Source: Kiritimatiellia bacterium (GTDB lineage: Bacteria > Verrucomicrobiota > Kiritimatiellia > CAIKKV01 > CAITUY01). From it: DNA of 64,000 bases. The notes under the pieces were generated by a model. That model did not search any database. It saw nothing but the letters and a program-made list of their open reading frames with translations, and was not told the origin of the DNA. The position numbers and the translations under genes were made by a program. This document shows positions 2,151-59,168 of this stretch, piece by piece (within the stretch, counting starts at the first letter, position 1; each line of letters opens with the position of its first letter). Location: the NCBI GenBank assembly GCA_038330175.1, contig JBBQNS010000004.1:67-64066 (forward strand), written 5' to 3'.

Positions 2151-3601
2151 ACCCCATCTCCATCCAACTCGAGTGCCCGAGCGGCCAGTTGCACGGCCTT
2201 CTGCATGCCGCGAGCCTTTTGACATGTTTCCTGGAATTCCTTCACCGGGTCGGAGTCGTAAACAATTCCGGCACCCGCCTGGATCGCCACGGTACCATTC
2301 GCCACTTCCAGAGTGCGAATCGTGATCGCCAAATCCATATTGCCATCATAGCCAACATATCCAACAGCTCCCCCATACACGCCGCGGGGTTCGGGCTCCA
2401 ATTCATGGATAATCTCCATGGCACGAATCTTGGGCGCACCCGAAAGAGTTCCGGCCGGGAACGTCGCTCGAATGACATCGTAGGCATCAAATTCTTTCCG
2501 CAATACGCCTTGCACATGGGACACCAAGTGCATTACGTGACTATAGCGTTCAATAACCATATAGTCAGTCACCTGCACGCTCCCCATCTCCGAGAGCCGC
2601 CCAATATCGTTGCGGCCCAGGTCTACCAACATCACATGCTCAGCACGCTCCTTCTCATCCGAAAGCAATTCATCCGCCAGCGTCCGGTCCTCCACGTCAT
2701 CCTTCCCGCGCGGTCGTGTTCCGGCAATGGGGCGTAATTCGACTTTGTTACCGGTCAGACGGACCATGACTTCAGGCGATGACCCTACGAGGATCTGCCC
2801 CCCCATTTTCAAAATGAAAGTATAGGGAGACGGATTCAGCAGCCGCAAGGCGCGATAGAGGTCTAGCGGCGGGATATCGGCTTTGGCACTGAACCGCTGG
2901 CTCAAAACAACCTGAATAATATCACCTGAATAAATATATCTCTTGGCCTTTTCGACCATTGCGCAAAATTGCTCCTGAGTTTGATTCGATTCAAACGTCA
3001 CCTCGCCCAAACTGCGGTGGCTCACTGGCCGATCCATGGTTTGATTCAGGGTATGTTCGACCCCTTCAATCTCCGCCACCGCGCGCCGATAGGCCGCCTC
3101 CGGTGAGGGTGATTCAGAGGGGCGGGTGCACACCACAATCTTGATGGTATGGCGGATATTGTCGAAAACAATCATACGATCGGCTTGCACGAACCGACTG
3201 CGCAGCCGCATTCCCGGCCGGCCGGCTTTAGGTTCAGGCATGCGCTCAAATTCGCCCGTCGCCTCATAGCCAATAAACCCTACAGCCCCGCCGATAAAAC
3301 GCGGAAGCCCGGGTACTACAGCAACCCGAACGCCTTTAAAAATACCACGGAGTTCCTCAAGCCCTTTTCCCGGTTTGCGGTGATCTACTTCCAGGAACGG
3401 ACGCGGGTCGATACCGACAAAAGAGTAGCGCCCCCATTTTTCGCCCCCCTCCATGCTTTCCAAAAGAAAGGCATTCTCCCGGTTCATGAAACGCTGCAAA
3501 ACAGAGACCGGCGTCTCGGTGTCAGCCAGAATCTCCTTGTACACTGGCACGATGTCATAGGCCCGTGCCAGTCCGGCATAATCTTTTTCGTTTGGAAACA
3601 T
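2147..3601 (-). CDS. trpE: anthranilate synthase component I
   Basis: 484 aa. Chorismate-binding enzyme motifs are present (..GAVGYVGYDGNMD.., LVDLGRNDIGR). Confidence 0.9.
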   Translation of the reverse strand: MFPNEKDYAGLARAYDIVPVYKEILADTETPVSVLQRFMNRENAFLLESMEGGEKWGRYSFVGIDPRPFLEVDHRKPGKGLEELRGIFKGVRVAVVPGLPRFIGGAVGFIGYEATGEFERMPEPKAGRPGMRLRSRFVQADRMIVFDNIRHTIKIVVCTRPSESPSPEAAYRRAVAEIEGVEHTLNQTMDRPVSHRSLGEVTFESNQTQEQFCAMVEKAKRYIYSGDIIQVVLSQRFSAKADIPPLDLYRALRLLNPSPYTFILKMGGQILVGSSPEVMVRLTGNKVELRPIAGTRPRGKDDVEDRTLADELLSDEKERAEHVMLVDLGRNDIGRLSEMGSVQVTDYMVIERYSHVMHLVSHVQGVLRKEFDAYDVIRATFPAGTLSGAPKIRAMEIIHELEPEPRGVYGGAVGYVGYDGNMDLAITIRTLEVANGTVAIQAGAGIVYDSDPVKEFQETCQKARGMQKAVQLAARALELDGDGV

Positions 3602-6328: not shown

Positions 6329-6363
6329 CAAATTTCTTCGATCACTTTACTAACGACGTTTAC

Positions 6364-6639
6364 CCTCCTCCTCGCTGCGCGTGAGGACACGCGCAGCTAC
6401 ACCAATGCAATACGCACCTTTCGTTTGGCCCCTTGTAGCGGCGCATGTCCCCATGCGCCGAATTCTCTAGCAGCGTGTCGAACTTGCACAGCCTTCGGAC
6501 TCAAAAGTCACCACCGGCGGAGACCGCCGGCTCCAAAAATTTAAAGCGCGGGCTATGCTAGGTGAATTAAGCAATGGGCAACATGTGACGCTTGATTGCT
6601 GGCGCAATTTTATTCTGGAGCCGGCGGTCTCCGCCGGTA
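6364..6639 (+). repeat. structured ~280-nt repeat, copy 1 of 2 (direct repeat with 10419-10697)
   Basis: About 90% identical to copy 2. It contains the hairpin gctgcgcgtg-agga-cacgcgcagc, the hairpin cggcgcatg-tcccc-atgcgccg, and two self-palindromic arms accggcggagaccgccggctcca / tggagccggcggtctccgccggt about 80 nt apart. Confidence 0.85.
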
Positions 6640-6799
6640 GTCCTCCCCAGGGCTTGGACAGCCTCAGCCTCAACTGATTGACGGTCACCATCGACTCTGC
6701 CGCCCCAGTCCGCTCGTCGTGATGCGGTACCAACCACCCTCGATATTATGCCTGATCGATCTAACCATGCCAGTTTCACTCGACCCACTGAGGCTCCGA

Positions 6800-9563: not shown

Positions 9564-9860
9564 ATGAAAACATTGACCATATCCCTTCGCCTTAGCTCCG
9601 ATGAAGTCGCGCTATTGGATCAGGCGGCTAAACACGACGGCCTGGACCGGTCTTCCCTGCTAAAACGCTTCCTTAGGCGCGGTCATGCTGATTATCGATA
9701 TGAAACGGCATGTACAGCCTATCGACGGGGCGAAGTCACCCTGTCCCGTGCGGCCGAAATCGCGGGCATGAGCGTCTACGACCTGTTGATCCGGTTCCCG
9801 GAGTCGGGGCTCCAACTCAATCTCACAGCCGACGATCTCCGCCGGGAATTGGCCTCATGA
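9564..9860 (+). CDS. antitoxin, UPF0175-family (RHH-like N-terminus)
   Basis: MKTLTISLRLSSDEVALLDQAAK.. plus a C-terminal UPF0175-like segment (TLSRAAEIAGMSVYDLL). There is an AGGAG SD at 9547. Its stop overlaps the start of the downstream PIN-like gene (ATGA). Confidence 0.7.
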   Translation: MKTLTISLRLSSDEVALLDQAAKHDGLDRSSLLKRFLRRGHADYRYETACTAYRRGEVTLSRAAEIAGMSVYDLLIRFPESGLQLNLTADDLRRELAS

Positions 9861-10418: not shown

Positions 10419-10697
10419 CCCTCCTCCTCCCTGCGCGTGAGGACACGCGCAGCTACACCAATGCAACACGCACCTCTCGTTCGGCCCCTTGTAGCGGCGC
10501 ATGTCCCCATGCGCCGAACCCTCTAGCAGCGTGTCGGACTTGCACAGCCTTCGGACTCAACAGTCACCACCGGCGGAGACTGCCGACTCCAATGATTGAA
10601 AGCGCAGGCTATCCTCAGTGAATTAAGCAATGGGCAACACGTGACACTTGATTGCTGACGCAAATTTTCTTCTGGAGCCGGCGGTCTCCGCCGGTAA
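10419..10697 (+). repeat. structured ~280-nt repeat, copy 2 of 2
   Basis: Direct repeat of 6364-6639 with the same internal hairpins and inverted arms. Confidence 0.85.
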
Positions 10698-12081: not shown

Positions 12082-13047
12082 CTACGCTCTCGGGTGGGCA
12101 TCATCGTATACTTTCTTCAATTTTTCCACAGTTACATGTGTATAGATCTGGGTAGTGGACAAGCTGGCATGGCCCAGCAACTCCTGCACACTCCGTAAAT
12201 CGGCGCCTGCATCCAACATGTGGGTGGCAAAAGAATGCCGCAACGAATGCGGCGAAATGTCCGGGTTAAGATTGGCACCCAACAGGTATTTCTTCAGCAA
12301 CCGCTCAACCGACCGGCTCGTCAATTTGCCACCATGGACATTCAAAAATAGCGGACGGTCATTCGGACGCCGGCGCTCTATCTCTGGCCAGAGTTCATTC
12401 CGCAGCACAAGGGAGACTCGCAGGGCTTTGGCCGCTGGGCGTCCCAATGCGCACAGACGCTCTTTTTTACCTTTACCGCGCACCTGCACCACCCCGCTCA
12501 GGGAGTCCACCTGGGGCTCCAAAAGTCCGACGATCTCGGTAATACGGCCTCCGGTACTATATAGCACCTCGAGAATAGCTTGATCACGCAACGCGCAGTA
12601 TTCCACCAGCTTACGTTCACGCAACTGTTTCGGCTTTTTCGCATCTGCCCATAACTTCAGGGGCATTTCCAGCAAGCGGTTAATTTCATCGCGTGACAGG
12701 AAATTAGGCAGTTTCTTGGCGCGTTTTGGAGCCTTCAATCCCGAGAATGGATTCAGTGTTACCATCGCCTCACGCTCCATAAATTTATAAAACGCGCGCA
12801 GGCTGGACAATTTCCGAGACGTGGTCGTGGCCTCACTCCCGCGCTTCTGGAAATCAACTAAAAAGGCACGTGCCTTAAATCGATCAACGGTCTCCCATTC
12901 ATAGGGAGGCAAGGCATCTCCAGTCCAGGTGAAGCGGATAAACTGGGCGATATCCATCAGATAGTTAGCTATGGTGTGCCGTGACGCATTTCGTTCATGC
13001 TCCAGATGGGCGGCATACTGGGATACGCAAGGGTCATCCGTCATCAT
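12082..13047 (-). CDS. xerC: tyrosine recombinase XerC/XerD family
   Basis: C-terminal catalytic region ..HSLRHSFATHMLDAGADLRSVQELLGHASLSTTQIYTHV.. with the nucleophilic Tyr. An N-terminal SAM-like domain is present. The start is uncertain; the ORF extends to 13143. Confidence 0.85.
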   Translation of the reverse strand: MMTDDPCVSQYAAHLEHERNASRHTIANYLMDIAQFIRFTWTGDALPPYEWETVDRFKARAFLVDFQKRGSEATTTSRKLSSLRAFYKFMEREAMVTLNPFSGLKAPKRAKKLPNFLSRDEINRLLEMPLKLWADAKKPKQLRERKLVEYCALRDQAILEVLYSTGGRITEIVGLLEPQVDSLSGVVQVRGKGKKERLCALGRPAAKALRVSLVLRNELWPEIERRRPNDRPLFLNVHGGKLTSRSVERLLKKYLLGANLNPDISPHSLRHSFATHMLDAGADLRSVQELLGHASLSTTQIYTHVTVEKLKKVYDDAHPRA

Positions 13048-13654
13048 GGCCCCACCCTGCCCGGCTCCACCGAGGGCCGGCACATTGGAAGCCGAGGGGA
13101 GATGCGCAGGTTTGCGCTTCAGATAGGGCTCGTCAAGGTTCATAAGGTTGATTTCGTCATCAGAGAAAAATAGTCGGGGTATACAAGCAAATCAATTTTT
13201 TTCTCAGTCATCTCGCCAGGGCAAACGCCTCGAAGCGCTATCCGGGTAGTTCGCGCGCTATGAGCGCGACATTCTCTCCGCATGCAGGATGCCAATGGCG
13301 GGCTCGTAACGCCCAACACCATTAACTCTTCAAAGGCTATTGAAATAAAAATGATGCACCACCCGCTTTGCTTGAGGCACGGAGACACAGAGAACTCACA
13401 CATCGGTAGCGGCAAGTCCAAATGTGGCGTGTATTTCGTCCACGGGGGTACCCATTTAATATTTCACAGGTCTTCTCTGTGTCTCTGTGTCTCCGTGCCT
13501 CTAGCGCTAGCGAGTGGTATATCTTTTTCTGAAATAGACTTCGAAATGTTAGTGGCATTGGGCTCGTAGCGCCCGCCCTCCCCGCATAAATTAGATGCGT
13601 ATACTTTAGTCATCTCGCTTGACCTAAGGCTCTTTTTCCTTCACCCTTCCCAAC

Positions 13655-17961: not shown

Positions 17962-17982
17962 CCAGAAGACTCGCATAATTCG

Positions 17983-18113
17983 CCCTGCCCACGCGGCTCA
18001 GCCTCTTCGACAAGCTCAGGGCAGGCAAGCTTCGCCCTCCAGAAGAACATGATAGACAGAGATGAGATGTTTCTTTTGGAGGGCGATGCTTGCCGGGCCG
18101 CGTGAATAAAAGG
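17983..18113 (+). repeat. long-hairpin palindromic element, copy A of 3
   Basis: ccctgccc-acgcggctcag..gcttcgccctccagaaga-[loop]-tcttttggagggcga..gccgcg-tgaataaaagg. Shared with 21373-21486 and 50568-50686 (inverted). Confidence 0.8.
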
Positions 18114-18166
18114 TGTTGACTGCATTTCAGCTTTACTGATTTCCAGTATATGTTTATCCTGCTCTT

Positions 18167-18400
18167 ATGAATGCTATTTTGGAACTTAATTCACGAGGGA
18201 CGCTAACGCTTCCAAAGGCCATGCGACGCCTTCTGGGGCTGGATCATGGGGGACGGATCATTGCGGAGACTTCGGAACAGGGAATATTGTTGCGCCCTGG
18301 CGTGGCTTTCCCTATCGAAATCTACTCCGATGCCCGGGTATCCGAGTTTGACTCCGCCGAGGAGGAACTTGGGAAACATCTGAAGCGTCGTTCAAAATGA
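18167..18400 (+). CDS. vapB: antitoxin, AbrB/MazE/SpoVT-fold (VapB-like)
   Basis: 77 aa, ..GTLTLPKAMRRLLGLDHGGRII.. swapped-hairpin-type antitoxin. It overlaps the downstream PIN gene by 4 nt. Confidence 0.7.
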   Translation: MNAILELNSRGTLTLPKAMRRLLGLDHGGRIIAETSEQGILLRPGVAFPIEIYSDARVSEFDSAEEELGKHLKRRSK

Positions 18401-18813
18401 GGGTGTTCGCTGACGCCAATGTCCTATTCTCCGCGGCCGATCCCAAAAGCGCCACACGAATACTATTGGAGGCTCTCTTCCAACATGCTGCCGTTGTGAT
18501 CAATGAGCATGTTTGGGAGGAAGTTAGGCGAAATGTTGACTTGAAACGTCCAAGCCTGATTTCCAGTCTCGAGAAGCTCAAACCTCGCTTTCACATGAGC
18601 GCAAAGATGACAGTCTTGAAAGACGTTGCACTTCCCGATAAGGATCAACCTGTTTTGGGAGGAGCCGTAGCAGACCAATGTTCACATCTTTGGACTGGCG
18701 ATAAGCGTCATTTTGGGCATTTGTATGGGAAAACTATAGGCGGCACTCTTGTTGTTTCCGCAACGATGCTGGCCGATGAACTGCAGCGCAAAGACTGGAT
18801 CATATTTAGATAA
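18397..18813 (+). CDS. vapC: PIN-domain toxin (VapC-like)
   Basis: MRVFADANVLFSA... with an N-terminal acidic residue pattern and ..TGDKRHF.. C-terminal motif, paired with the upstream antitoxin. Confidence 0.7.
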   Translation: MRVFADANVLFSAADPKSATRILLEALFQHAAVVINEHVWEEVRRNVDLKRPSLISSLEKLKPRFHMSAKMTVLKDVALPDKDQPVLGGAVADQCSHLWTGDKRHFGHLYGKTIGGTLVVSATMLADELQRKDWIIFR

Positions 18814-18834
18814 ACCGCGCCAATTACCAGACCT

Positions 18835-19704
18835 TTAACGGCAAGGCGGCAACACTGCCGGAATAAATCCGTTTTCTTTTAACCAGAAAACTAGATCGTT
18901 CGCCCAGGGATGTGGGCGTTCAAAAGGCCATTTGGCGACCAAGCCAATGCCATGACAGCCCTTGGTGTAGATGTGTAAATCAAAGGGAATGTTGTTACGC
19001 CGTAAAGCAGCAGCAAACTGCAGGCTGTTTTCGACCTTCACCGCATTGTCCTCCCAGGTATGCCATATAAAACAAGGGGGCGTTTGGGACGTCACATTCA
19101 GCTCCGCCGAAAGATGCTGAATCAGCTCAGGAGTCGGATTGTCACCCAATAAATTCGAGCGTGACCCTAAATGGGTAACATCATCATCCTGCATGGAAAG
19201 AACCGCATAGCAAAGCACCCCGAAATCGGGTCGTGAACTCACGCGCTCAATCGGGTCAGAATTATGAGCCTGACCGGCATCAAAATGTGTGATCAACGAG
19301 GAAGCCAAATGTCCGCCAGCGGAGGACCCCATGATGCCGATCCGGTCCGGCCGGACGCCCCAACGAACGGCCCCGCACCGAACCACTCGCAAGGCGCGCG
19401 CCGCGTCCTGTATCATCACCGGGTGGCGGTAGTTAGAGGAACCTAGTCGATATTTCAAGACAAAGGCCGCCAGTCCTTGTTGATTCAGAAACAAGGCATA
19501 ATCCCGACCCTCGTGTTCCGCCAGTCCCCAATAACCGCCCCCAGGACAAATTACCATAGCGGCCCCAGAGGACTTCCCCTCCTCCGGCAGATAGATTTCA
19601 AGGGAAGGCCTGTCTGCATCGCCCTGCCCCAAGGCGCCAGGTGCGCCGGCCGGCCATAATTCGATTCTTTCGCAAGGTACTCCTGAGGATAAAGATGTTG
19701 TCAT
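18835..19704 (-). CDS. alpha/beta-hydrolase fold esterase (acetyl-esterase/lipase-like)
   Basis: HGGG-type oxyanion motif (VICPGGGYW) and nucleophile elbow GSSAGG. Confidence 0.7.
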   Translation of the reverse strand: MTTSLSSGVPCERIELWPAGAPGALGQGDADRPSLEIYLPEEGKSSGAAMVICPGGGYWGLAEHEGRDYALFLNQQGLAAFVLKYRLGSSNYRHPVMIQDAARALRVVRCGAVRWGVRPDRIGIMGSSAGGHLASSLITHFDAGQAHNSDPIERVSSRPDFGVLCYAVLSMQDDDVTHLGSRSNLLGDNPTPELIQHLSAELNVTSQTPPCFIWHTWEDNAVKVENSLQFAAALRRNNIPFDLHIYTKGCHGIGLVAKWPFERPHPWANDLVFWLKENGFIPAVLPPCR

Positions 19705-19718
19705 TAGCTAAACTCCGA

Positions 19719-20798
19719 TTACCGCTGAACGCGGGCATTGCCCTTCCAAATACTCCACACCTGATCTTCGTCCGCTGGCTGACCATAATCAGTCAACAGT
19801 GTGGTCGCCAGAGCGCCTGTCGCCCAGCCAAATTGGACCCATTTTTTCGGTTCCCAGCCTTTTAAGATGGCATAAAGCATGCCACCCACAAACCCGTCGC
19901 CACCGCCAATGCGGTCTAACACGGTGATTTCGCGCGGTTCCACCACGTACCACTCATTGCCTGCGGCCATCAGCGCACCCCATAAATGGTGATTCGCATC
20001 TTCGACTTCCCGAAGCGTCGTGCCATACGTCTGGGCATTCGGGTACGCCTTCTTAACACGCTCAATCATGCCTTTGAAGCCGTCAATTTTCGCTTTGATA
20101 TCCTTACCGCCGGCCTCAGGACCTTGAACCCCCAGACAGAGCTGGAAGTCCTCTTCATTACCCACAAGAATATCGGCCACACTTGCGATTTCAGCAAAAA
20201 TGGCTGAAAGTTCCTTTTCACGTCCCTTCCAAAACGATGCGCGGTAATTCAAATCGAATGAAATCTTTGTGCCATATTTTTTTGCGGCGCGCGCCAACTC
20301 CAGACAGAACACACTTGTTTCCGGCGAAAGTGCACCAATCAGGCCTGAGAGATGGACAATCTGAACCCCCTCCTTACCAAAAATACGATCCAAGTCGAAA
20401 TCCTTCACATTCAAGGTGCGGCCAACCTCACCCGCACGGTCGTTCCACACCCGGGGCCCACGCGAGCCAAAACCACTATCCGCGATGTTGATCTGATGGC
20501 GATATCCCCAAGGTCCACCTTGAGCAACCTCAACCCCTTCAAAATCCATATTGCGACTGCGCAAATTATCCTTAATGAGTTGTGCGATAGGACTCCCCTG
20601 CACGAAGGTGGTTAACACTTTAACCGGTAAGCCGAGATACGAAACGACGCTGGCAACATTCGTTTCGGCACTCGTGGCCTGCATTGAAAAATTGCCCCCG
20701 GTATGCACCGGCTGCCCATTCATCGGCGTAATCCGAATCCCCATACTCGTAGGAACCAAAAGTGAATACTTACAGTTTTTCTTAAACTCAATTTTCAT
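19719..20798 (-). CDS. PfkB-family sugar kinase (2-dehydro-3-deoxygluconokinase-like)
   Basis: Ribokinase/pfkB fold motifs (..GGDGFVGG.. near the C-terminus). The start is trimmed to MKIEFKK, which has an AAGGAAAA SD. Confidence 0.7.
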   Translation of the reverse strand: MKIEFKKNCKYSLLVPTSMGIRITPMNGQPVHTGGNFSMQATSAETNVASVVSYLGLPVKVLTTFVQGSPIAQLIKDNLRSRNMDFEGVEVAQGGPWGYRHQINIADSGFGSRGPRVWNDRAGEVGRTLNVKDFDLDRIFGKEGVQIVHLSGLIGALSPETSVFCLELARAAKKYGTKISFDLNYRASFWKGREKELSAIFAEIASVADILVGNEEDFQLCLGVQGPEAGGKDIKAKIDGFKGMIERVKKAYPNAQTYGTTLREVEDANHHLWGALMAAGNEWYVVEPREITVLDRIGGGDGFVGGMLYAILKGWEPKKWVQFGWATGALATTLLTDYGQPADEDQVWSIWKGNARVQR

Positions 20799-20976
20799 GC
20801 TATTTTCCTTCAGATGAATCGCGAATATCTCACAGCCTCTAACTATCGGCAAATGCAATGTGTAATTTTATTGAGTGCTCCTATATCAGGGTGATATCTT
20901 TGCCGCTTCGTCACTCCCAGGGCGGGAGTGAGCAATCGAGTGAATTTTGATTTATATTTTATGCAGGAATATCAAC

Positions 20977-21297
20977 ATGAGTAATGAGACGTTCGACAAT
21001 GTTTCCGTAACGGCCAAGGCCAACATCTATTTTGACGGCAAAGTGGTAAGCCATACCTTCATGCTACCTGACGGCGAAAAAAAGACCTTGGGCCTAATCT
21101 ATCCCGGGATCTTCACATTTAATACCGACGCACCCGAAGAAATGAAGATCATCGCGGGCACCTGCAAGGCACGACAAGAGGGCCAAAAAGACTGGATCCC
21201 CTACCCCGCAGGGACTCTGTTTAATGTCCCGGGAAAGTCCAAATTCGATATTTCTGTGGAGTCAGGCATCGCCGAATATATTTGTTCATTCAAATGA
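20977..21297 (+). CDS. ppnP: pyrimidine/purine nucleoside phosphorylase PpnP (DUF1255/YaiE family)
   Basis: ..YFDGKVVSHTF..GEKKTLGLIYPGIFTFNTDAPEEMKIIAGTC..GTLFNVPGKSKFDISV.. aligns with E. coli YaiE. Confidence 0.8.
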   Translation: MSNETFDNVSVTAKANIYFDGKVVSHTFMLPDGEKKTLGLIYPGIFTFNTDAPEEMKIIAGTCKARQEGQKDWIPYPAGTLFNVPGKSKFDISVESGIAEYICSFK

Positions 21298-21372
21298 GGC
21301 GCGTTTAGGCGCCCAGTGCTCGGTATGGATCCAAGTCCTCGCCTAAGGACGTTCCGACCACGGTGAACTCAC

Positions 21373-21486
21373 ATGATTCACCCTGCCCACGCGGCTCAGC
21401 AAGCTTCGCCCTCCAGAAGATATGATCTATAAGGGCAAGATTATTCTTCTGGAGGGCGAAGCTTGCTGAGCCGCGTGAATAAAAGG
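21373..21486 (+). repeat. long-hairpin palindromic element, copy B of 3
   Basis: Near-perfect ~30-bp stem cacgcggctcagcaagcttcgccctccagaaga / tcttctggagggcgaagcttgctgagccgcgtg with a ~25-nt loop. Confidence 0.85.
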
Positions 21487-21496
21487 CGCTGTAGTT

Positions 21497-21561
21497 CCTT
21501 TGTGTGCTTCGTGAGCTTCTGTTAAATTTCTTCTTCTTGGTTCCGGTTATGCCGGGTTAGG
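21497..21561 (+). repeat. conserved intergenic motif family 3, copy i of 4 (cctttgtgtgcttcgtgagcttctgttaaatttcttc..ttggttccggttatgccgggttagg)
   Basis: Shared core gcttcgtgagcttctgttcaaatttcttc with 45330-45385, 53610-53655 and 59088-59130. Confidence 0.75.
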
Positions 21562-21643
21562 CGAGAATTTGAGACCTCTTTTCTTGAACATACTCTAAAC
21601 CGTGCTATTGTGTGCGTCAGTTTGACACTGCGACATAAAGACC

Positions 21644-25360: not shown

Positions 25361-25456
25361 ATTTTTATTTCGTCCTTCACCATATACCTCTGAGCCGCTG
25401 AATCAGTGAGCCCCTAATTTATAAGGTCAATAGTCTTTCATACAACAACTAAAATC

Positions 25457-25607
25457 AGCAGTTCTCATTATGGACCAGTTCGATCAATCATTCTCGGAGC
25501 GGAACGTGTAAACGTTCCGGAAATGCCCGGAATCGTCAACCACCTTCGTCAAGCTTCGGCGTGTCATGCCGATTCCGCTCCAAAAAAAATCATAATGATA
25601 ATTCACT
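25457..25607 (+). repeat. structured intergenic element family 4, copy 1 (carries a 32-nt insertion relative to copy 2)
   Basis: Shares about 110 nt with 31607-31728, including the perfect palindrome CGGAACGT-gtaa-ACGTTCCG (25500-25519) and nested inverted repeats gagcggaa/ttccgctc and ctcattatg/cataatga. Confidence 0.8.
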
Positions 25608-25720
25608 TGCCAATCTACCATCTCGTAGGCTTCGACAGCAGAGCGGACGACACGGAGGTCGTCCCTCCATATTGCAAGACCGTCTGCTCTGGAGGTTTTG
25701 CAAGGGCCTCTAGATCCATC

Positions 25721-31606: not shown

Positions 31607-31728
31607 CAGCAGTTCTCATTATGGCCCTGTTCGATCAATCTTTCTAAGAGCGGAACGTGTAAACGTTCCGGAAATGCCCGGAATCGTCACCGATTCCGCT
31701 CCAAAAAAGTCATAATGACAATTACTGC
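31607..31728 (+). repeat. structured intergenic element family 4, copy 2; flanked by 9-bp direct repeat caacgcggg (MITE-like)
   Basis: Contains the same palindrome CGGAACGTgtaaACGTTCCG (31651-31670). Imperfect terminal inverted repeats cagcagttctcattatg / cataatgacaattactgc. caacgcggg lies on both sides (31598-31606 and 31729-31737). Confidence 0.7.
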
Positions 31729-39230: not shown

Positions 39231-39318
39231 GAGAAAGCTGAAAGCAGAAAGCTGAAAATTGAAATAAGACAGATAGGAGAAAGCAGAAAACAGAAAGCTG
39301 AAAGCTGGAAGCAGACAC
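39231..39318. repeat. low-complexity GAAAGCTGAAAG-type repeat block (left flank of four-helix-bundle cassette)
   Basis: Iterated agctgaaag/cagaaag units. This is the reverse-complement counterpart of the block at 39797-39885. Confidence 0.75.
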
Positions 39319-39372
39319 AAGCCCCTTGGTATGGCCTTAAAATTTATGCAAAAGTCATTCATCATTCCTCTT

Positions 39373-39777
39373 TTACTCTCCCTGAAATTTCTGCTTTCTG
39401 CTTTCAACTTTCAGCTTTCCTCTTGTTTTCTTCACCATGGTGGTGCAAATTGCGATGAGCTCATCAGATTTACGATAAAGATCTGCAAGCAAAATATCGG
39501 AAATTCCGCAATCATCTCGCAACAACTCAAGCCAAAGCTGAGATTCATCCGCTTCCTGCATACCCCCTTCGAGTTCCGAACAGAATTCGGCATCTGATCG
39601 GGCGCGCGATGCCTCCCTGATATGAGCCGCGACTGACGTGCCTGATCTCAACAACTGTGTACCGAGAACCCGCACTTCCTCACGTCCTTTCGGCAACCCA
39701 ACAAACAAACGGATTATCTTAGACGCAAACCCCTTGGCCCGCCCTCGAAATTCCTGCGAAAGTCGCCCCTCATTCAT
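39373..39777 (-). CDS. four-helix-bundle protein (TIGR02436 / 23S rRNA intervening-sequence protein family)
   Basis: ..LGTQLLRSGTSVAAHIREASRARSDAEFCSELEGGMQEADESQLWLELL.. matches the family consensus (..LTSQIRRAA.SI..NIAEG..R.S..EF..FL.IA.GS..E..). Confidence 0.75.
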   Translation of the reverse strand: MNEGRLSQEFRGRAKGFASKIIRLFVGLPKGREEVRVLGTQLLRSGTSVAAHIREASRARSDAEFCSELEGGMQEADESQLWLELLRDDCGISDILLADLYRKSDELIAICTTMVKKTRGKLKVESRKQKFQGE

Positions 39778-45063: not shown

Positions 45064-45433
45064 GATTAAAAAATAACATCACATGGATATGATGTAAACT
45101 TAAAAAACGGAATGCTGAAGAGGCACTTGTAAAACCTAGAATCCAGGGAAGCGTAAAGTGCCAAGTTATTTTCCGGCGAGATCAGGAAGTCTGAGGCTGC
45201 GGAGGACAAGAGTGCCTGGCTTACTGTTGAGGGCTCCTCAGTACGGTGGGCACCTACTCACTTACTCACGGCTGCCAGCGGAAGAAGTTGTTCTTGCCGA
45301 TTGCGCCTGCGGCGTACTCGCCGCTGGCGCCTTTGCGTGCTTCTGTTCAAAATCTTCCTCTTGGCTCCGGCTATGCTGGGTTAGGATCATGGGCATGATT
45401 GGTGAGCACCTGCTTCCAGGCCTCCACGAGAAA

Positions 45434-50396: not shown

Positions 50397-50567
50397 AAAA
50401 CTCCTCTAATTAACTTATATTGTTTCTGGCACTCGTAAGTTGAGAGTGCCTCTTTCGGACTGAAATTGTGGCGATGTTGCCACAGGGTGGGCAACAAGAG
50501 CAAGGATGAAGGCAGCACCCAAATTCTCGTGCCTAAGGGCTTGGTCTCTCCTGGAAACTTCATCATA

Positions 50568-50686
50568 CACCCTTTATTAGCGCGGCTCAGCAAGCTTCGC
50601 CCTCCAGCAGAAAAATCCTGCCTTTGTAGATCATATTCTTCTGGAGGGCGAAGCTTGCCTGAGCCGCGCGGGCAGGGTGAATCAGG
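50568..50686 (-). repeat. long-hairpin palindromic element, copy C of 3 (inverted orientation)
   Basis: caccctttattag-cgcggctcagcaagcttcgccctccag..ctggagggcgaagcttgcctgagccgcg-cgggcagggtgaatcagg. It is the reverse complement of the A/B consensus, including the terminal tgaataaaagg and ccctgccc blocks. Confidence 0.85.
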
Positions 50687-53585: not shown

Positions 53586-53748
53586 GGTTCCTGAGGATGC
53601 TAGTGTTTTCTCTTTGCGTTCTTCACGAGCTTCTGTTCAAATTCTTTCTTCTTCGAATCATGACCAAGATGCGATTGATTCAAGTCGTAAGGCACTAGGA
53701 AACTCTTATGAAACTACCCACCCGTAATCTATTCACTGGTGCAGGTTC

Positions 53749-58953: not shown

Positions 58954-59168
58954 TCCTATTTTCACGACTGGACACTGAAAAATATTTTGAACAGAAGCTC
59001 ACCAAGAACGCGAAGTTAAGGATTCATCCCACTGCGGGCATGCCCGCCGGAGTCCGGCATAGGCGGGAGGTGGTAGCAAATCCATTCTCCTTTGTGGGCT
59101 TCGTGAGCTTCTGTTCAAATTTCTTTCCCCGCGAAACGGGTGCTGGCCCCCTAAGTGCCCGATTAGTC

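What the first reader, a model, noticed from the sequence alone, without database searches (positions are those of the whole stretch)
17983..18113. Family of ~115-nt perfect long-hairpin elements (three copies: 17983, 21373, 50568)
Seen in sequence: each copy has a ~30-bp near-perfect stem (cacgcggctcagcaagcttcgccctccagaaga / tcttctggagggcgaagcttgctgagccgcgtg). The ~25-nt loop is itself conserved (atgatctataagggcaagatt / atgatctacaaaggcaggatt). Conserved flanks ccctgccc and tgaataaaagg are present, and copy C is inverted. All three sit in 3' intergenic regions: after the 802-aa gene, after ppnP, and after the 767-aa gene. A conserved loop argues for more than a generic terminator. Candidates are a REP/MITE-like mobile hairpin, an sRNA, or a protein-recognition hairpin. 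Copy A has a 24-nt insertion inside the left arm.
Basis: seen in the sequence. Interest (0 to 1): 0.6.

Follow-up and report, generated by a model that had tools for sequence, protein, structure and literature searches.

The report
REPIN-like mobile hairpin doublets
The three long hairpins are copies of a small non-coding repeat made of two inverted REP-like units, and units of the same family flank RAYT transposase genes in related bacteria, so this is a real but ordinary kind of bacterial mobile DNA in a lineage where I found no description of it.

Summary
There are three copies (A 17976-18117 +, B 21373-21488 +, C 50566-50684 inverted). B has a perfect 33-bp stem, B and C are 91% identical, and A carries a 24-nt insertion.

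Each arm is one roughly 27-nt unit, GGC-TC-NNN-loop-N'N'N'-TC-GCC followed by CTCCAGAA. Covariation supports this small imperfect hairpin. It occurs singly, as tag-to-tag and foot-to-foot inverted dimers, and in tandem arrays, much like REP/BIME/REPIN repeats.

In six of six loci inspected that encode a RAYT-type HUH/Y1 transposase (Kiritimatiellae, Pontiellaceae and unnamed MAGs), the gene is flanked by these units or dimers. A related genome with the same gene order lacks copies A and B. A Logan assembly of the same sequence breaks inside A and B.

The copies have no T-run and no Rfam match. The loop is conserved only within this genome, which points to common descent rather than a loop function.

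Best reading: non-autonomous REPIN-type mobile hairpins, probably moved in trans by a RAYT. They carry a GGAG tag instead of the classical GTAG. The cognate RAYT of this genome was not found. I class it as a new member of a known kind, of modest interest.

The parts
17976..18117 (+). Copy A of the hairpin doublet. It lies 14 nt after the stop of the 802-aa gene and 49 nt before the AbrB-family gene. It is the most degenerate copy.
   Evidence: It is 84% identical to B outside the insertion. It is absent after the 802-aa ortholog in L157.
18003..18026 (+). 24-nt insertion that disrupts the left unit of copy A.
   Evidence: Alignments show a 24-column gap in B and a 23-column gap in C.
18072..18106 (-). 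Right arm of copy A. It is a REP-like unit read on the minus strand (GGCCCGGCAAGCATCGCCCTCCAAAA).
21373..21488 (+). Copy B of the hairpin doublet, the best preserved copy. It lies 75 nt after the ppnP stop and 155 nt before the sensor-kinase start.
   Evidence: (I3: 33/33 bp). It is absent from the ppnP-kinase spacer of L157.
21391..21420 (+). Left REP-like unit of B: C-GGC-TC-AGC-AA-GCT-TC-GCC-CTCCAGAAGA (hairpin plus tag).
   Evidence: The unit structure is supported by covariation in the family.
21421..21444 (+). 24-nt spacer (loop) of B, between the two tags.
   Evidence: It is conserved with C (about 19 of 23) but not with dimers of other genomes.
21445..21474 (-). Right REP-like unit of B, the exact reverse complement of the left unit.
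   Evidence: Window 21441-21474 (TTATTCTTCTGGAGGGCGAAGCTTGCTGAGCCGC) is 34/34 identical to units in the MAGs ELA573 and S02.Bin004.
50566..50684 (-). Copy C of the hairpin doublet, inverted on the + strand. It has the same orientation as A and B relative to its upstream gene (767 aa, minus strand). It lies 235 nt after that gene's stop and 169 nt before the start of the 350-aa GFO/IDH/MocA gene.
   Evidence: 91% identical to B.
50582..50612 (+). Unit of copy C read on the + strand (GGCTCAGCAAGCTTCGCCCTCCAGCAGAA).
50636..50667 (-). Unit of copy C read on the minus strand, with one extra base (GGCTCAGGCAAGCTTCGCCCTCCAGAA).

Best explanation
Each element is a REPIN-type doublet. Two copies of a roughly 27-nt REP-like unit sit in inverted orientation with their conserved CTCCAGAA tags facing each other across a roughly 24-nt spacer, so either DNA strand or a transcript can fold into one long hairpin.

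The unit is a small imperfect hairpin, GGC-TC-NNN-loop-N'N'N'-TC-GCC, followed by the unpaired tag CTCCA(G/A). Read on the other strand, this is a GGAG tag 5' of the hairpin foot, where classical REPs have GTAG.

Units of this family flank genes for a clade of RAYT-type HUH/Y1 tyrosine transposases in Kiritimatiellae, Pontiellaceae and other MAGs; named homologs also come from Verrucomicrobiota.

The most likely mechanism, which is inferred and not shown here, is this: a RAYT encoded elsewhere in this genome recognises the folded single-stranded unit plus its tag and copies or moves the doublet as one piece. That would account for the shared spacer and flanks of A, B and C.

The copies sit between co-directional genes, where they are tolerated. 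They are probably transcribed as part of 3' UTRs or intercistronic RNA. There a 33-bp duplex would act as a barrier to 3' exonucleases or as an RNase III substrate. This is a side effect and is inferred.
For: Shown:
1. Real multi-copy repeat. There are three copies, 82-91% identical over about 115 nt including spacer and flanks. The Logan contig of the same sequence spans exactly window 18025-21401, ending inside A and inside B, which is the behaviour of a repeat that collapses an assembly graph.
2. Presence/absence. L157 has the same gene order (802-aa gene ... esterase, PfkB, ppnP, kinase). Its kinase is in the same 90% cluster and its regulator is 87% identical. Its ppnP-kinase spacer is 83 nt against 346 nt here. 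It lacks both B and A. About 68 kb of syntenic relatives hold no unit.
3. Same unit elsewhere. It is 29-34 nt identical in the MAGs 'bacterium ELA573' and 'Verrucomicrobia S02.Bin004', often at contig ends.
4. REP/BIME-like mosaic. Units occur singly, as tag-to-tag dimers (spacing mostly 19-35 nt), as foot-to-foot dimers (spacing 0-23 nt or about 80 nt) and in tandem arrays.
5. Unit hairpin. On 20 arms not constrained by my search pattern, 14 cells change on both sides against 4.3 in shuffles (0 of 500). The covariation score is 0.242 against 0.077, and all slid registers score lower. The inner stem is seen as GGC/GCC, GCC/GGC, ACC/GGT, GCG/CGC and AGC/GCT.
6. RAYT link. The 168-aa ORF L147:2120-2626 has the HUH motif (HVHLF) and the catalytic-Tyr region (YVRENPVRAGLV). 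It matches NCBIfam REP_Tyr_transpos at E = 5e-19. JGI names several of its homologs RayT.
7. Flanking. Six of six homolog loci inspected are flanked by the units or dimers on both sides: L147, L151, L152 from Pontiellaceae B12227, with variant stems but the same CCTCCA tag, L158, L159 and L165. L058 holds a 5'-deleted remnant in the same arrangement.
8. Other evidence in the window. It holds further hairpin+CTCCA(A/G)AA units of other stem sequences, 11 found against 2.6 in shuffles.
9. One compensatory change keeps the outermost stem pair: A-T in A and B, G-C in C.
Against: - No RAYT gene is present in the window. I could not find the RAYT that belongs to the AAGCTT subtype of the unit. The link to a transposase therefore rests on unit homology, not on this genome.
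- The genome-wide copy number is unknown.
- The empty site in L157 is not a clean junction. About 275 nt differ, including at least one other repeat, so exact ends and any target duplication cannot be read.
- In the window subtype the single-unit hairpin is weak. Its loop is only 2 nt, its DNA energy is about -3 kcal/mol and z is about +0.5.
- The classical GTAG tag is absent.
- The NCBIfam score of 68.6 bits is below the curated cut-off of 80.
- In ELA573 the foot-to-foot dimers lie inside a roughly 310-nt unit bounded by 19-bp terminal inverted repeats. That leaves room for another mobilising enzyme in that genome.
- Mobility itself was not observed.
Confidence: 0.8

Rival explanations
1. 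A conventional MITE. The roughly 30-nt arm is the terminal inverted repeat of an insertion sequence with a DDE transposase, and the hairpins are internally deleted or rearranged copies moved by cut-and-paste.
For: In ELA573 and S02.Bin004 the arms occur as outward-facing inverted repeats around a conserved internal segment of about 80 nt, which looks like a MITE. In ELA573 these sit in a roughly 310-nt unit with 19-bp terminal inverted repeats, CACTGTCATCCCATAGGCA.
Against: - The same arm occurs in both relative orientations, as singletons and in tandem arrays.
- No full-length IS bounded by the arms was seen in about 165 loci.
- No target-site duplication is visible at A, B or C.
- The arms flank Y1 (RAYT) genes, not DDE genes, in six of six loci.
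Confidence: 0.07
2. A host-selected RNA element. It would be a transcription attenuator, an mRNA 3'-end stabiliser or an RNase III processing site placed after genes, kept for that function and not mobile.
For: All three copies lie downstream of genes in the same orientation relative to transcription. The predicted RNA hairpins are very stable. One compensatory change preserves the stem. REPs in general are reported to lie mostly downstream of coding regions and are thought to be transcribed (PMC3733652).
Against: - There is no T-run after the stem, and the terminator scan calls none of the three.
- No Rfam family matches; the only hits are sub-threshold matches to miRNA hairpin models.
- The elements are absent from the orthologous sites in L157, whose genes are otherwise conserved.
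- The three upstream genes are unrelated; the 802-aa and 767-aa proteins are not paralogs.
- This reading does not explain the flanking of RAYT genes.
- It can still hold as a secondary effect of a mobile element.
Confidence: 0.08
3. A small gene. The loop and right arm would encode a 15-aa peptide (MIYKGKIILLEGEAC in B, MIYKGRIFLLEGEAC in C), or the hairpin would be an independent sRNA.
For: An ATG lies in the loop. Three of the five B/C differences within this ORF are synonymous (read directly).
Against: - Copy A gives a different, longer peptide.
- The same kind of dimer in other genomes has unrelated spacers without this ORF.
- There is no promoter-like site next to A or B, and only one weak match outside C.
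- Five differences are too few to test for selection.
- The peptide's C-terminal half is simply the translated arm.
Confidence: 0.02

Closest known systems
REP / BIME repeats and REPINs with their RAYT (TnpA_REP) transposases (E. coli, Pseudomonas, Stenotrophomonas)
   Same: - The unit is a short imperfect palindrome with an unpaired conserved tag at one end.
- The repeats are extragenic and lie mostly after genes.
- They form inverted dimers in both arrangements, and clusters.
- The dimers form long hairpins and are copied as one piece.
- The units flank a single HUH/Y1 transposase gene (a 'REPtron') (PMC3733652).
   Different: - The tag is GGAG (CTCCA on the other strand), not GTAG.
- The stem carries a conserved tandem TC/TC (GA/GA) mismatch.
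- The arms of the window subtype are longer (33 bp), and the single-unit hairpin is weak.
- The hosts are Kiritimatiellae, Pontiellaceae and unclassified relatives.
- The cognate RAYT of this genome was not seen.
GTAG- and CGTC-tagged REP superfamilies and TIRtrons/TIRYTs (Di Nocera et al. 2013, PMC3733652)
   Same: The same logic of tagged stem-loops, HH and TT dimers, and occasional in-frame insertion into genes. That paper reports REP families in Opitutus terrae, Rhodopirellula baltica and other PVC genomes.
   Different: The tag fits neither consensus nor the listed variants (GYAG, GYRG, GTRG, GTMG, GTGG). The peptides listed there for O. terrae and R. baltica intragenic REPs (VGPALAAG, GTGVPPV, SRIRQEF and others) are not those this unit would encode (RLGGSLAL, SAGASPS, ARQEPRP).
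Correia elements (Neisseria) and other bacterial MITEs such as ERIC, RUP and Nezha
   Same: They are repeats of roughly 100-150 nt that fold into long hairpins next to genes. As RNA they are known to alter mRNA stability or to be cut by RNase III (stated from established knowledge and the PMC3733652 background).
   Different: Those elements have terminal inverted repeats of a DDE-type IS and target-site duplications. Here no duplication is seen, the repeated module occurs in every orientation, and it is tied to a Y1 transposase.
IS200/IS605 family insertion sequences
   Same: The same transposase superfamily (Pfam Y1_Tnp) and reliance on subterminal DNA hairpins rather than terminal inverted repeats.
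   Different: Here the transposase gene appears to be single-copy and surrounded by many short non-coding units, rather than being carried within each mobile copy.

Membership tests
REP/REPIN-RAYT system | The repeat unit is a short (20-40 nt) imperfect palindrome | tested here: met
   There is an 8-pair hairpin, GGC-xx-NNN / N'N'N'-xx-GCC. It shows 14 double-change cells against 4.3 in shuffles (0 of 500) and a covariation score of 0.242 against 0.077. The thermodynamics of the single unit are unremarkable.
REP/REPIN-RAYT system | A conserved unpaired GTAG tetranucleotide at the foot of the hairpin | tested here: not met
   The conserved unpaired tag is CTCCA(G/A), which reads (C/A)TGGAG on the other strand: GGAG where GTAG would be. 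A conserved tag exists, but it is not the classical one.
REP/REPIN-RAYT system | Units occur as inverted dimers with preferred spacing that fold into one hairpin (REPIN), and in clusters | tested here: met
   Within 400 nt I counted 38 tag-to-tag pairs (32 with 19-35 nt spacing), 69 foot-to-foot pairs and 24 direct pairs. The window copies are tag-to-tag with spacers of 23-24 nt. Tandem arrays occur in L151, L071 and L084.
REP/REPIN-RAYT system | Units flank a RAYT gene (REPtron) | tested here: met
   This holds for the family: six of six RAYT-homolog loci (L147, L151, L152, L158, L159, L165) plus the remnant in L058. It was not tested for this genome or for the AAGCTT subtype. No RAYT lies in the window.
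REP/REPIN-RAYT system | The transposase is a RAYT: an HUH motif and a catalytic Tyr, closer to the RAYT model than to the IS200 model | tested here: inconclusive
   NCBIfam REP_Tyr_transpos gives E = 5e-19 at 68.6 bits, below the cut-off of 80. The IS200 model gives only 18 bits. The HVHLF and YVRENPVRAGLV motifs are present. JGI names several homologs RayT.
REP/REPIN-RAYT system | High copy number, extragenic, within one genome | not testable with these tools
   Only 64 kb of this genome is available. It holds three doublets, all intergenic. An assembly break inside A and B implies further copies or at least repeat collapse. ELA573 gave 17 of the 25 genome-scan loci, many at contig ends.
REP/REPIN-RAYT system | Mobility: presence/absence between related genomes, excision or copying | tested here: inconclusive
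   A and B are absent at the syntenic sites of L157. However, the differing segment is about 275 nt and composite, so a clean insertion junction is not shown.
MITE of a DDE-type insertion sequence | Terminal inverted repeats at the element ends, plus a target-site duplication | tested here: not met
   In the window the long repeats face inward, not at the termini. Only a 6-bp outer complement (CACCCT/AGGGTG) is present, and only in C. No direct duplication flanks A, B or C.
Intrinsic (Rho-independent) terminator | A G+C-rich hairpin followed directly by a T-run on the transcribed strand | tested here: not met
   The stems are followed by AATAAAAGG. The terminator scan calls none of the three.
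Any Rfam RNA family | A match at or above the family's gathering score | tested here: not met
   At gathering threshold only a tRNA matched in the window. In E-value mode only sub-threshold matches to miRNA-precursor hairpin models appeared.

The most novel reading that the evidence does not exclude
The units define a third, so far undescribed, superfamily of tagged REPs. It has a GGAG/CTCCA tag and a stem with a conserved tandem TC/GA mismatch, and it co-evolves with its own RAYT clade. It is abundant in Kiritimatiellae, Pontiellaceae and unclassified PVC MAGs, and in many uncultured bacteria seen in metagenomes. Some RAYT genes of the clade carry one unit in frame inside their own coding sequence.
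Probability: 0.45. Interest if true: 0.45.

Novelty: new member of a known kind. Interest (0 to 1): 0.35.

Why it matters
- **Annotation.** These repeats break assemblies of PVC-group MAGs. They seed spurious short ORFs; for example, the gene call for P0010 starts inside a unit. They also hid a real 168-aa RAYT gene from the gene caller.
- **Biology.** A REP family with a different tag and its own RAYT clade would extend the REP/RAYT system to a poorly studied group. It offers a natural test of how the tag and the hairpin foot specify recognition by Y1 enzymes.
- **This window.** The result says the hairpins need no special regulatory explanation.

Tried and rejected
- **Rfam.** Gathering and E-value modes found no family.
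- **Intrinsic terminator.** There is no T-run.
- **Small ORF in the loop.** It is not conserved in A or in dimers of other genomes.
- **Duplication of gene 3' ends.** The 802-aa and 767-aa proteins are unrelated, and the distances from stop codon to element differ.
- **Alternative unit fold GGCTC/GAGCC.** It has no covariation.
- **The Y1 transposase gene in L001.** It lies next to a truncated dimer, but it is flanked by its own different repeats (GGTCTGTCCCTACTGTCC), so it is not the cognate enzyme.
- **RAYT search.** tblastn with an E. coli RAYT sequence recalled from memory, and with the L147 RAYT, found no RAYT in the window or in the ELA573 and S02.Bin004 loci.
- **Target-site duplication or clean empty site.** Not resolvable.
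- **Literature.** Searches by sequence string and by REPIN/RAYT plus PVC taxa found no description of this unit. The REP families of O. terrae and R. baltica in PMC3733652 are different.
- **Host taxonomy.** It could only be narrowed to an unclassified PVC-group MAG.

Full report
**1. The observation**

The three copies are real.
- Copy B (21373-21488) has a perfect 33-bp inverted repeat, 21388-21420 / 21445-21477, around a 24-nt spacer.
- Copy C (50566-50684) is the same element inverted, with one mismatch and one bulge.
- Copy A (17976-18117) has a 24-nt insertion in the left arm and several mismatches.

Predicted RNA energies are -79.1, -76.7 and -69.9 kcal/mol, with z-scores of -13.3, about -10.5 and -6.6. 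As DNA, B folds at -49.6 kcal/mol.

The arm sequence occurs far more often than chance allows. Whole-element identity is 91% for B/C, 84% for A/B and 82% for A/C.

All three copies lie between co-directional genes and have the same orientation relative to the upstream gene:
- the 802-aa gene then AbrB/PIN;
- ppnP then the sensor kinase;
- the 767-aa gene then a GFO/IDH/MocA oxidoreductase.

The 802-aa and 767-aa proteins are not paralogs, so the copies are not remnants of a gene duplication.

**2. The arm is a widespread unit**

An exact 19-mer of the arm found 25 stretches in the species-representative genomes. Most were in the MAGs 'bacterium ELA573' (17 loci, many at contig ends) and 'Verrucomicrobia bacterium S02.Bin004', and two were in a Kiritimatiellae MAG. 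At least three, from Niveispirillum and two archaeal MAGs, lack the rest of the unit and look like chance matches.

In those genomes the same 29-34 nt (100% identical) occurs in the opposite arrangement. The arms face outward around a conserved internal segment of about 80 nt (L002, L003, L005, L007, L011, L021, L024) or a 13-nt one (L009). It also occurs in the window's arrangement, in L004, L016 and L020.

The commonest form there is CGGCTCGGC(G/A)GGAGCCTCGCCCTCCAG. It is present as singletons, inverted pairs of both kinds and tandem arrays. Tag-to-tag pairs are mostly 19-35 nt apart, like the window copies. Foot-to-foot pairs cluster at 0-23 nt and about 80 nt.

**3. Structure of the unit**

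I looked at partner arms and RAYT-flanking arms, which my search patterns did not constrain. Their sequence reads GGC-(TC)-NNN-loop-N'N'N'-(TC)-GCC-CTCCA. The inner triplets co-vary: GGC/GCC, GCC/GGC, ACC/GGT, GCG/CGC, and AGC/GCT in the window. In some lineages the TC/TC mismatch is replaced by G-C pairs, as in GGCGGAC...GTCCGCC.

On a gap-free alignment of 20 such arms:
- This 8-pair helix has 14 cells changed on both sides against 4.3 in shuffles (0 of 500).
- Its covariation score is 0.242 against 0.077 (0 of 500).
- It beats every slid register.
- The alternative helix GGCTC/GAGCC shows no covariation.

The single-unit hairpin is thermodynamically ordinary (z near 0). The evidence for it is therefore comparative, not energetic.

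The unit is a small imperfect palindrome with a conserved unpaired tag, which is the anatomy of a REP. On the complementary strand the tag reads GGAG at the position where classical REPs have GTAG.

**4. Link to a transposase**

A weak tblastn hit led to L058. There, a 3' fragment of a Y1-transposase gene lies between units.

Its closest relatives in the protein database are short fragments. One of them lies in L147 (GCA_964386865.1). Reading the DNA there shows an uncalled, intact 168-aa ORF at 2120-2626:
- It has an HUH motif (HVHLF) and the Tyr region (YVRENPVRAGLV).
- It is flanked 15 nt upstream and 28 nt downstream by tag-to-tag dimers of the unit.
- One further unit lies in frame inside the gene.

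The protein matches NCBIfam 'REP-associated tyrosine transposase' at E = 5e-19 (68.6 bits, cut-off 80) and Pfam Y1_Tnp weakly. It has 3,691 homologs at E <= 1e-5. Several are named RayT by JGI, and others come from Kiritimatiellae, Verrucomicrobiota, Pontiellaceae and Lentimonas.

I inspected five further homolog loci, and all are flanked by the units.

| Locus | Source | What flanks the RAYT gene |
|---|---|---|
| L151 | ENA+NCBI record, unnamed | two dimers upstream, five tandem dimers downstream |
| L152 | Pontiellaceae bacterium B12227 | different stems, the same CCTCCA tag |
| L158 | Kiritimatiellae MAG | near-identical dimers on both sides |
| L159 | Kiritimatiellia bacterium MAG | a foot-to-foot dimer with the exact TCGCCCTCCAG core |
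| L165 | NCBI MAG, unnamed | units on both sides |

This is the 'REPtron' arrangement described for REP/RAYT systems (PMC3733652).

**5. Evidence bearing on mobility in this lineage**

The window comes from a 66,681-nt NCBI contig of an unclassified PVC-group MAG.

A Logan assembly of the same sequence yields a contig that spans exactly 18025-21401. It ends inside A and inside B.

L157 is a related metagenome scaffold with the same gene order. Its kinase is in the same 90% cluster and its regulator is 87% identical. Its ppnP-kinase spacer is 83 nt against 346 nt here, and it has no element after the 802-aa ortholog. About 68 kb of syntenic sequence from five relatives holds no unit.

The junction is not clean. 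About 275 nt differ at the B site, including a second, unrelated repeat. I therefore cannot give exact ends or exclude a target duplication.

**6. The conserved loop**

B and C share about 19 of 23 loop positions, and A shares fewer. Dimers of the same unit in other genomes have unrelated spacers. RAYT-flanking dimers within one genome share theirs. The simplest reading is that the doublet is copied as one piece, which is the defining behaviour of a REPIN. Loop conservation is then inheritance.

The 15-aa ORF that starts in the loop is not conserved in A or elsewhere, so I reject it.

**7. What it probably does**

The following steps are inferred:
- A RAYT encoded elsewhere in the genome recognises the folded single-stranded unit and its tag, and moves or copies doublets.
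- The copies persist between co-directional genes.
- When transcribed, a 33-bp duplex would block 3' exonucleases or be cut by RNase III, as reported for other bacterial hairpin repeats.

Nothing here shows such an effect. There is no T-run and no Rfam match.

**8. Comparison with what is known**

The element works like REP/BIME/REPIN repeats and meets most of their defining features: a palindromic unit, inverted dimers, an extragenic position and RAYT flanking.

It fails the classical GTAG tag. It also does not fit the CGTC superfamily or the tag variants listed by Di Nocera et al. The REPs that paper lists for O. terrae and R. baltica encode different peptides.

Literature searches by sequence and by taxon found no description. 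I therefore file it as a new member of a known kind. There is a moderate chance that it represents an undescribed tagged-REP superfamily.

**9. Limits**

- The cognate RAYT of the AAGCTT subtype was not found.
- The genome-wide copy number is unknown.
- Host taxonomy is only approximate.
- The habitats and taxa of the metagenome contigs were not examined.
- Transposition was not observed.

Noticed in passing
window 6363-6641 and 10419-10696: A composite repeat of about 280 nt in two copies (92% identical). It is made of several palindromes: GCTGCGCGTG-AGGA-CACGCGCAGC (6374-6397); a canonical GTAG-tagged REP, GTAG-CGGCGCATG-TCCC-CATGCGCCG (6435-6460 and 10491-10516); and an inverted pair of CCGGCGG-AGA-CCGCCGG-CTCCA(A/G)AA units 74-81 nt apart (6510-6538/6613-6641 and 10569-10591/10673-10695). 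The last pair has the same tag as the finding but a different stem.
   Followed up: partly
window 9790-9817, 12497-12524, 25556-25585, 25645-25672, 31679-31706: Further short hairpins followed by CTCCA(A/T)A. The window holds 11 hairpin+CTCCA sites against 2.6 in shuffles, which suggests several REP-like subfamilies share the tag. Sites 25556 and 31679 lie beside or at the end of an 83-nt two-copy repeat (25456-25538 / 31607-31689).
   Followed up: partly
window 21496-21571, 45318-45390, 53608-53650, 58977-59015 (inverted), 59086-59126; L090:72-129: A second repeat family with an invariant core, GCTTCTGTT-AA. Three copies continue with CTTGGTTCCGGYTATGCCGGGTTAG. One copy lies directly after copy B and is also missing from L157. 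Similar CTTCGTG-rich sequence lies next to units in L016, L012 and L027. Its nature is unknown.
   Followed up: partly
L147:2431-2456, L151:~1838-1865, L058:~2977-3004, L165:~1857-1885: Several RAYT genes of this clade carry one REP-like unit in frame inside their own coding sequence (encoding RLGAASPP or similar). It sits at the same position, between the HUH region and the Tyr region. L152, L158 and L159 lack it.
   Followed up: partly
L147:2120-2626: An intact 168-aa RAYT ORF was not called in the public gene set; only its last 41 codons were called (P0003). In L151 the gene call instead starts inside a repeat unit (MEGEA...). This shows how these repeats disturb gene calling.
   Followed up: yes
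L001:3101-4700 (Verrucomicrobia S02.Bin004): A 349-aa Y1_Tnp protein gene is flanked by its own inverted repeats (GGACAGTAGGGACAGACC-type, several copies). It abuts a foot-to-foot dimer that is truncated exactly at the unit boundary. It looks like a TIR-flanked tyrosine-transposase element inserted at a REP-like unit.
   Followed up: partly
L015, L017, L018, L021, L023, L025 (MAG ELA573): The foot-to-foot dimers are nested in a repeat of about 310 nt bounded by 19-bp terminal inverted repeats, CACTGTCATCCCATAGGCA. This is a MITE-like composite that may be moved by a different enzyme.
   Followed up: no
window 18167-18813 versus L157:287-2283: The AbrB/MazE-like plus PIN toxin-antitoxin pair next to copy A is replaced in the syntenic relative by URO-D and AraC-family genes. 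The region next to copy A is therefore variable.
   Followed up: no
window 21298-21313: A small hairpin, GGCGC-GTTTAG-GCGCC, lies directly after the ppnP stop codon. It is part of the sequence absent from L157.
   Followed up: no
window 39231-39419 and 13370-13505: Two more repeat structures. One is a 14-nt tandem GAAAGCTGAAAGCA-type array with an inverted partner 80-125 nt away. The other is an inverted repeat, GAGGCACGGAGACACAGAGA, with 78-88 nt between the arms.
   Followed up: no
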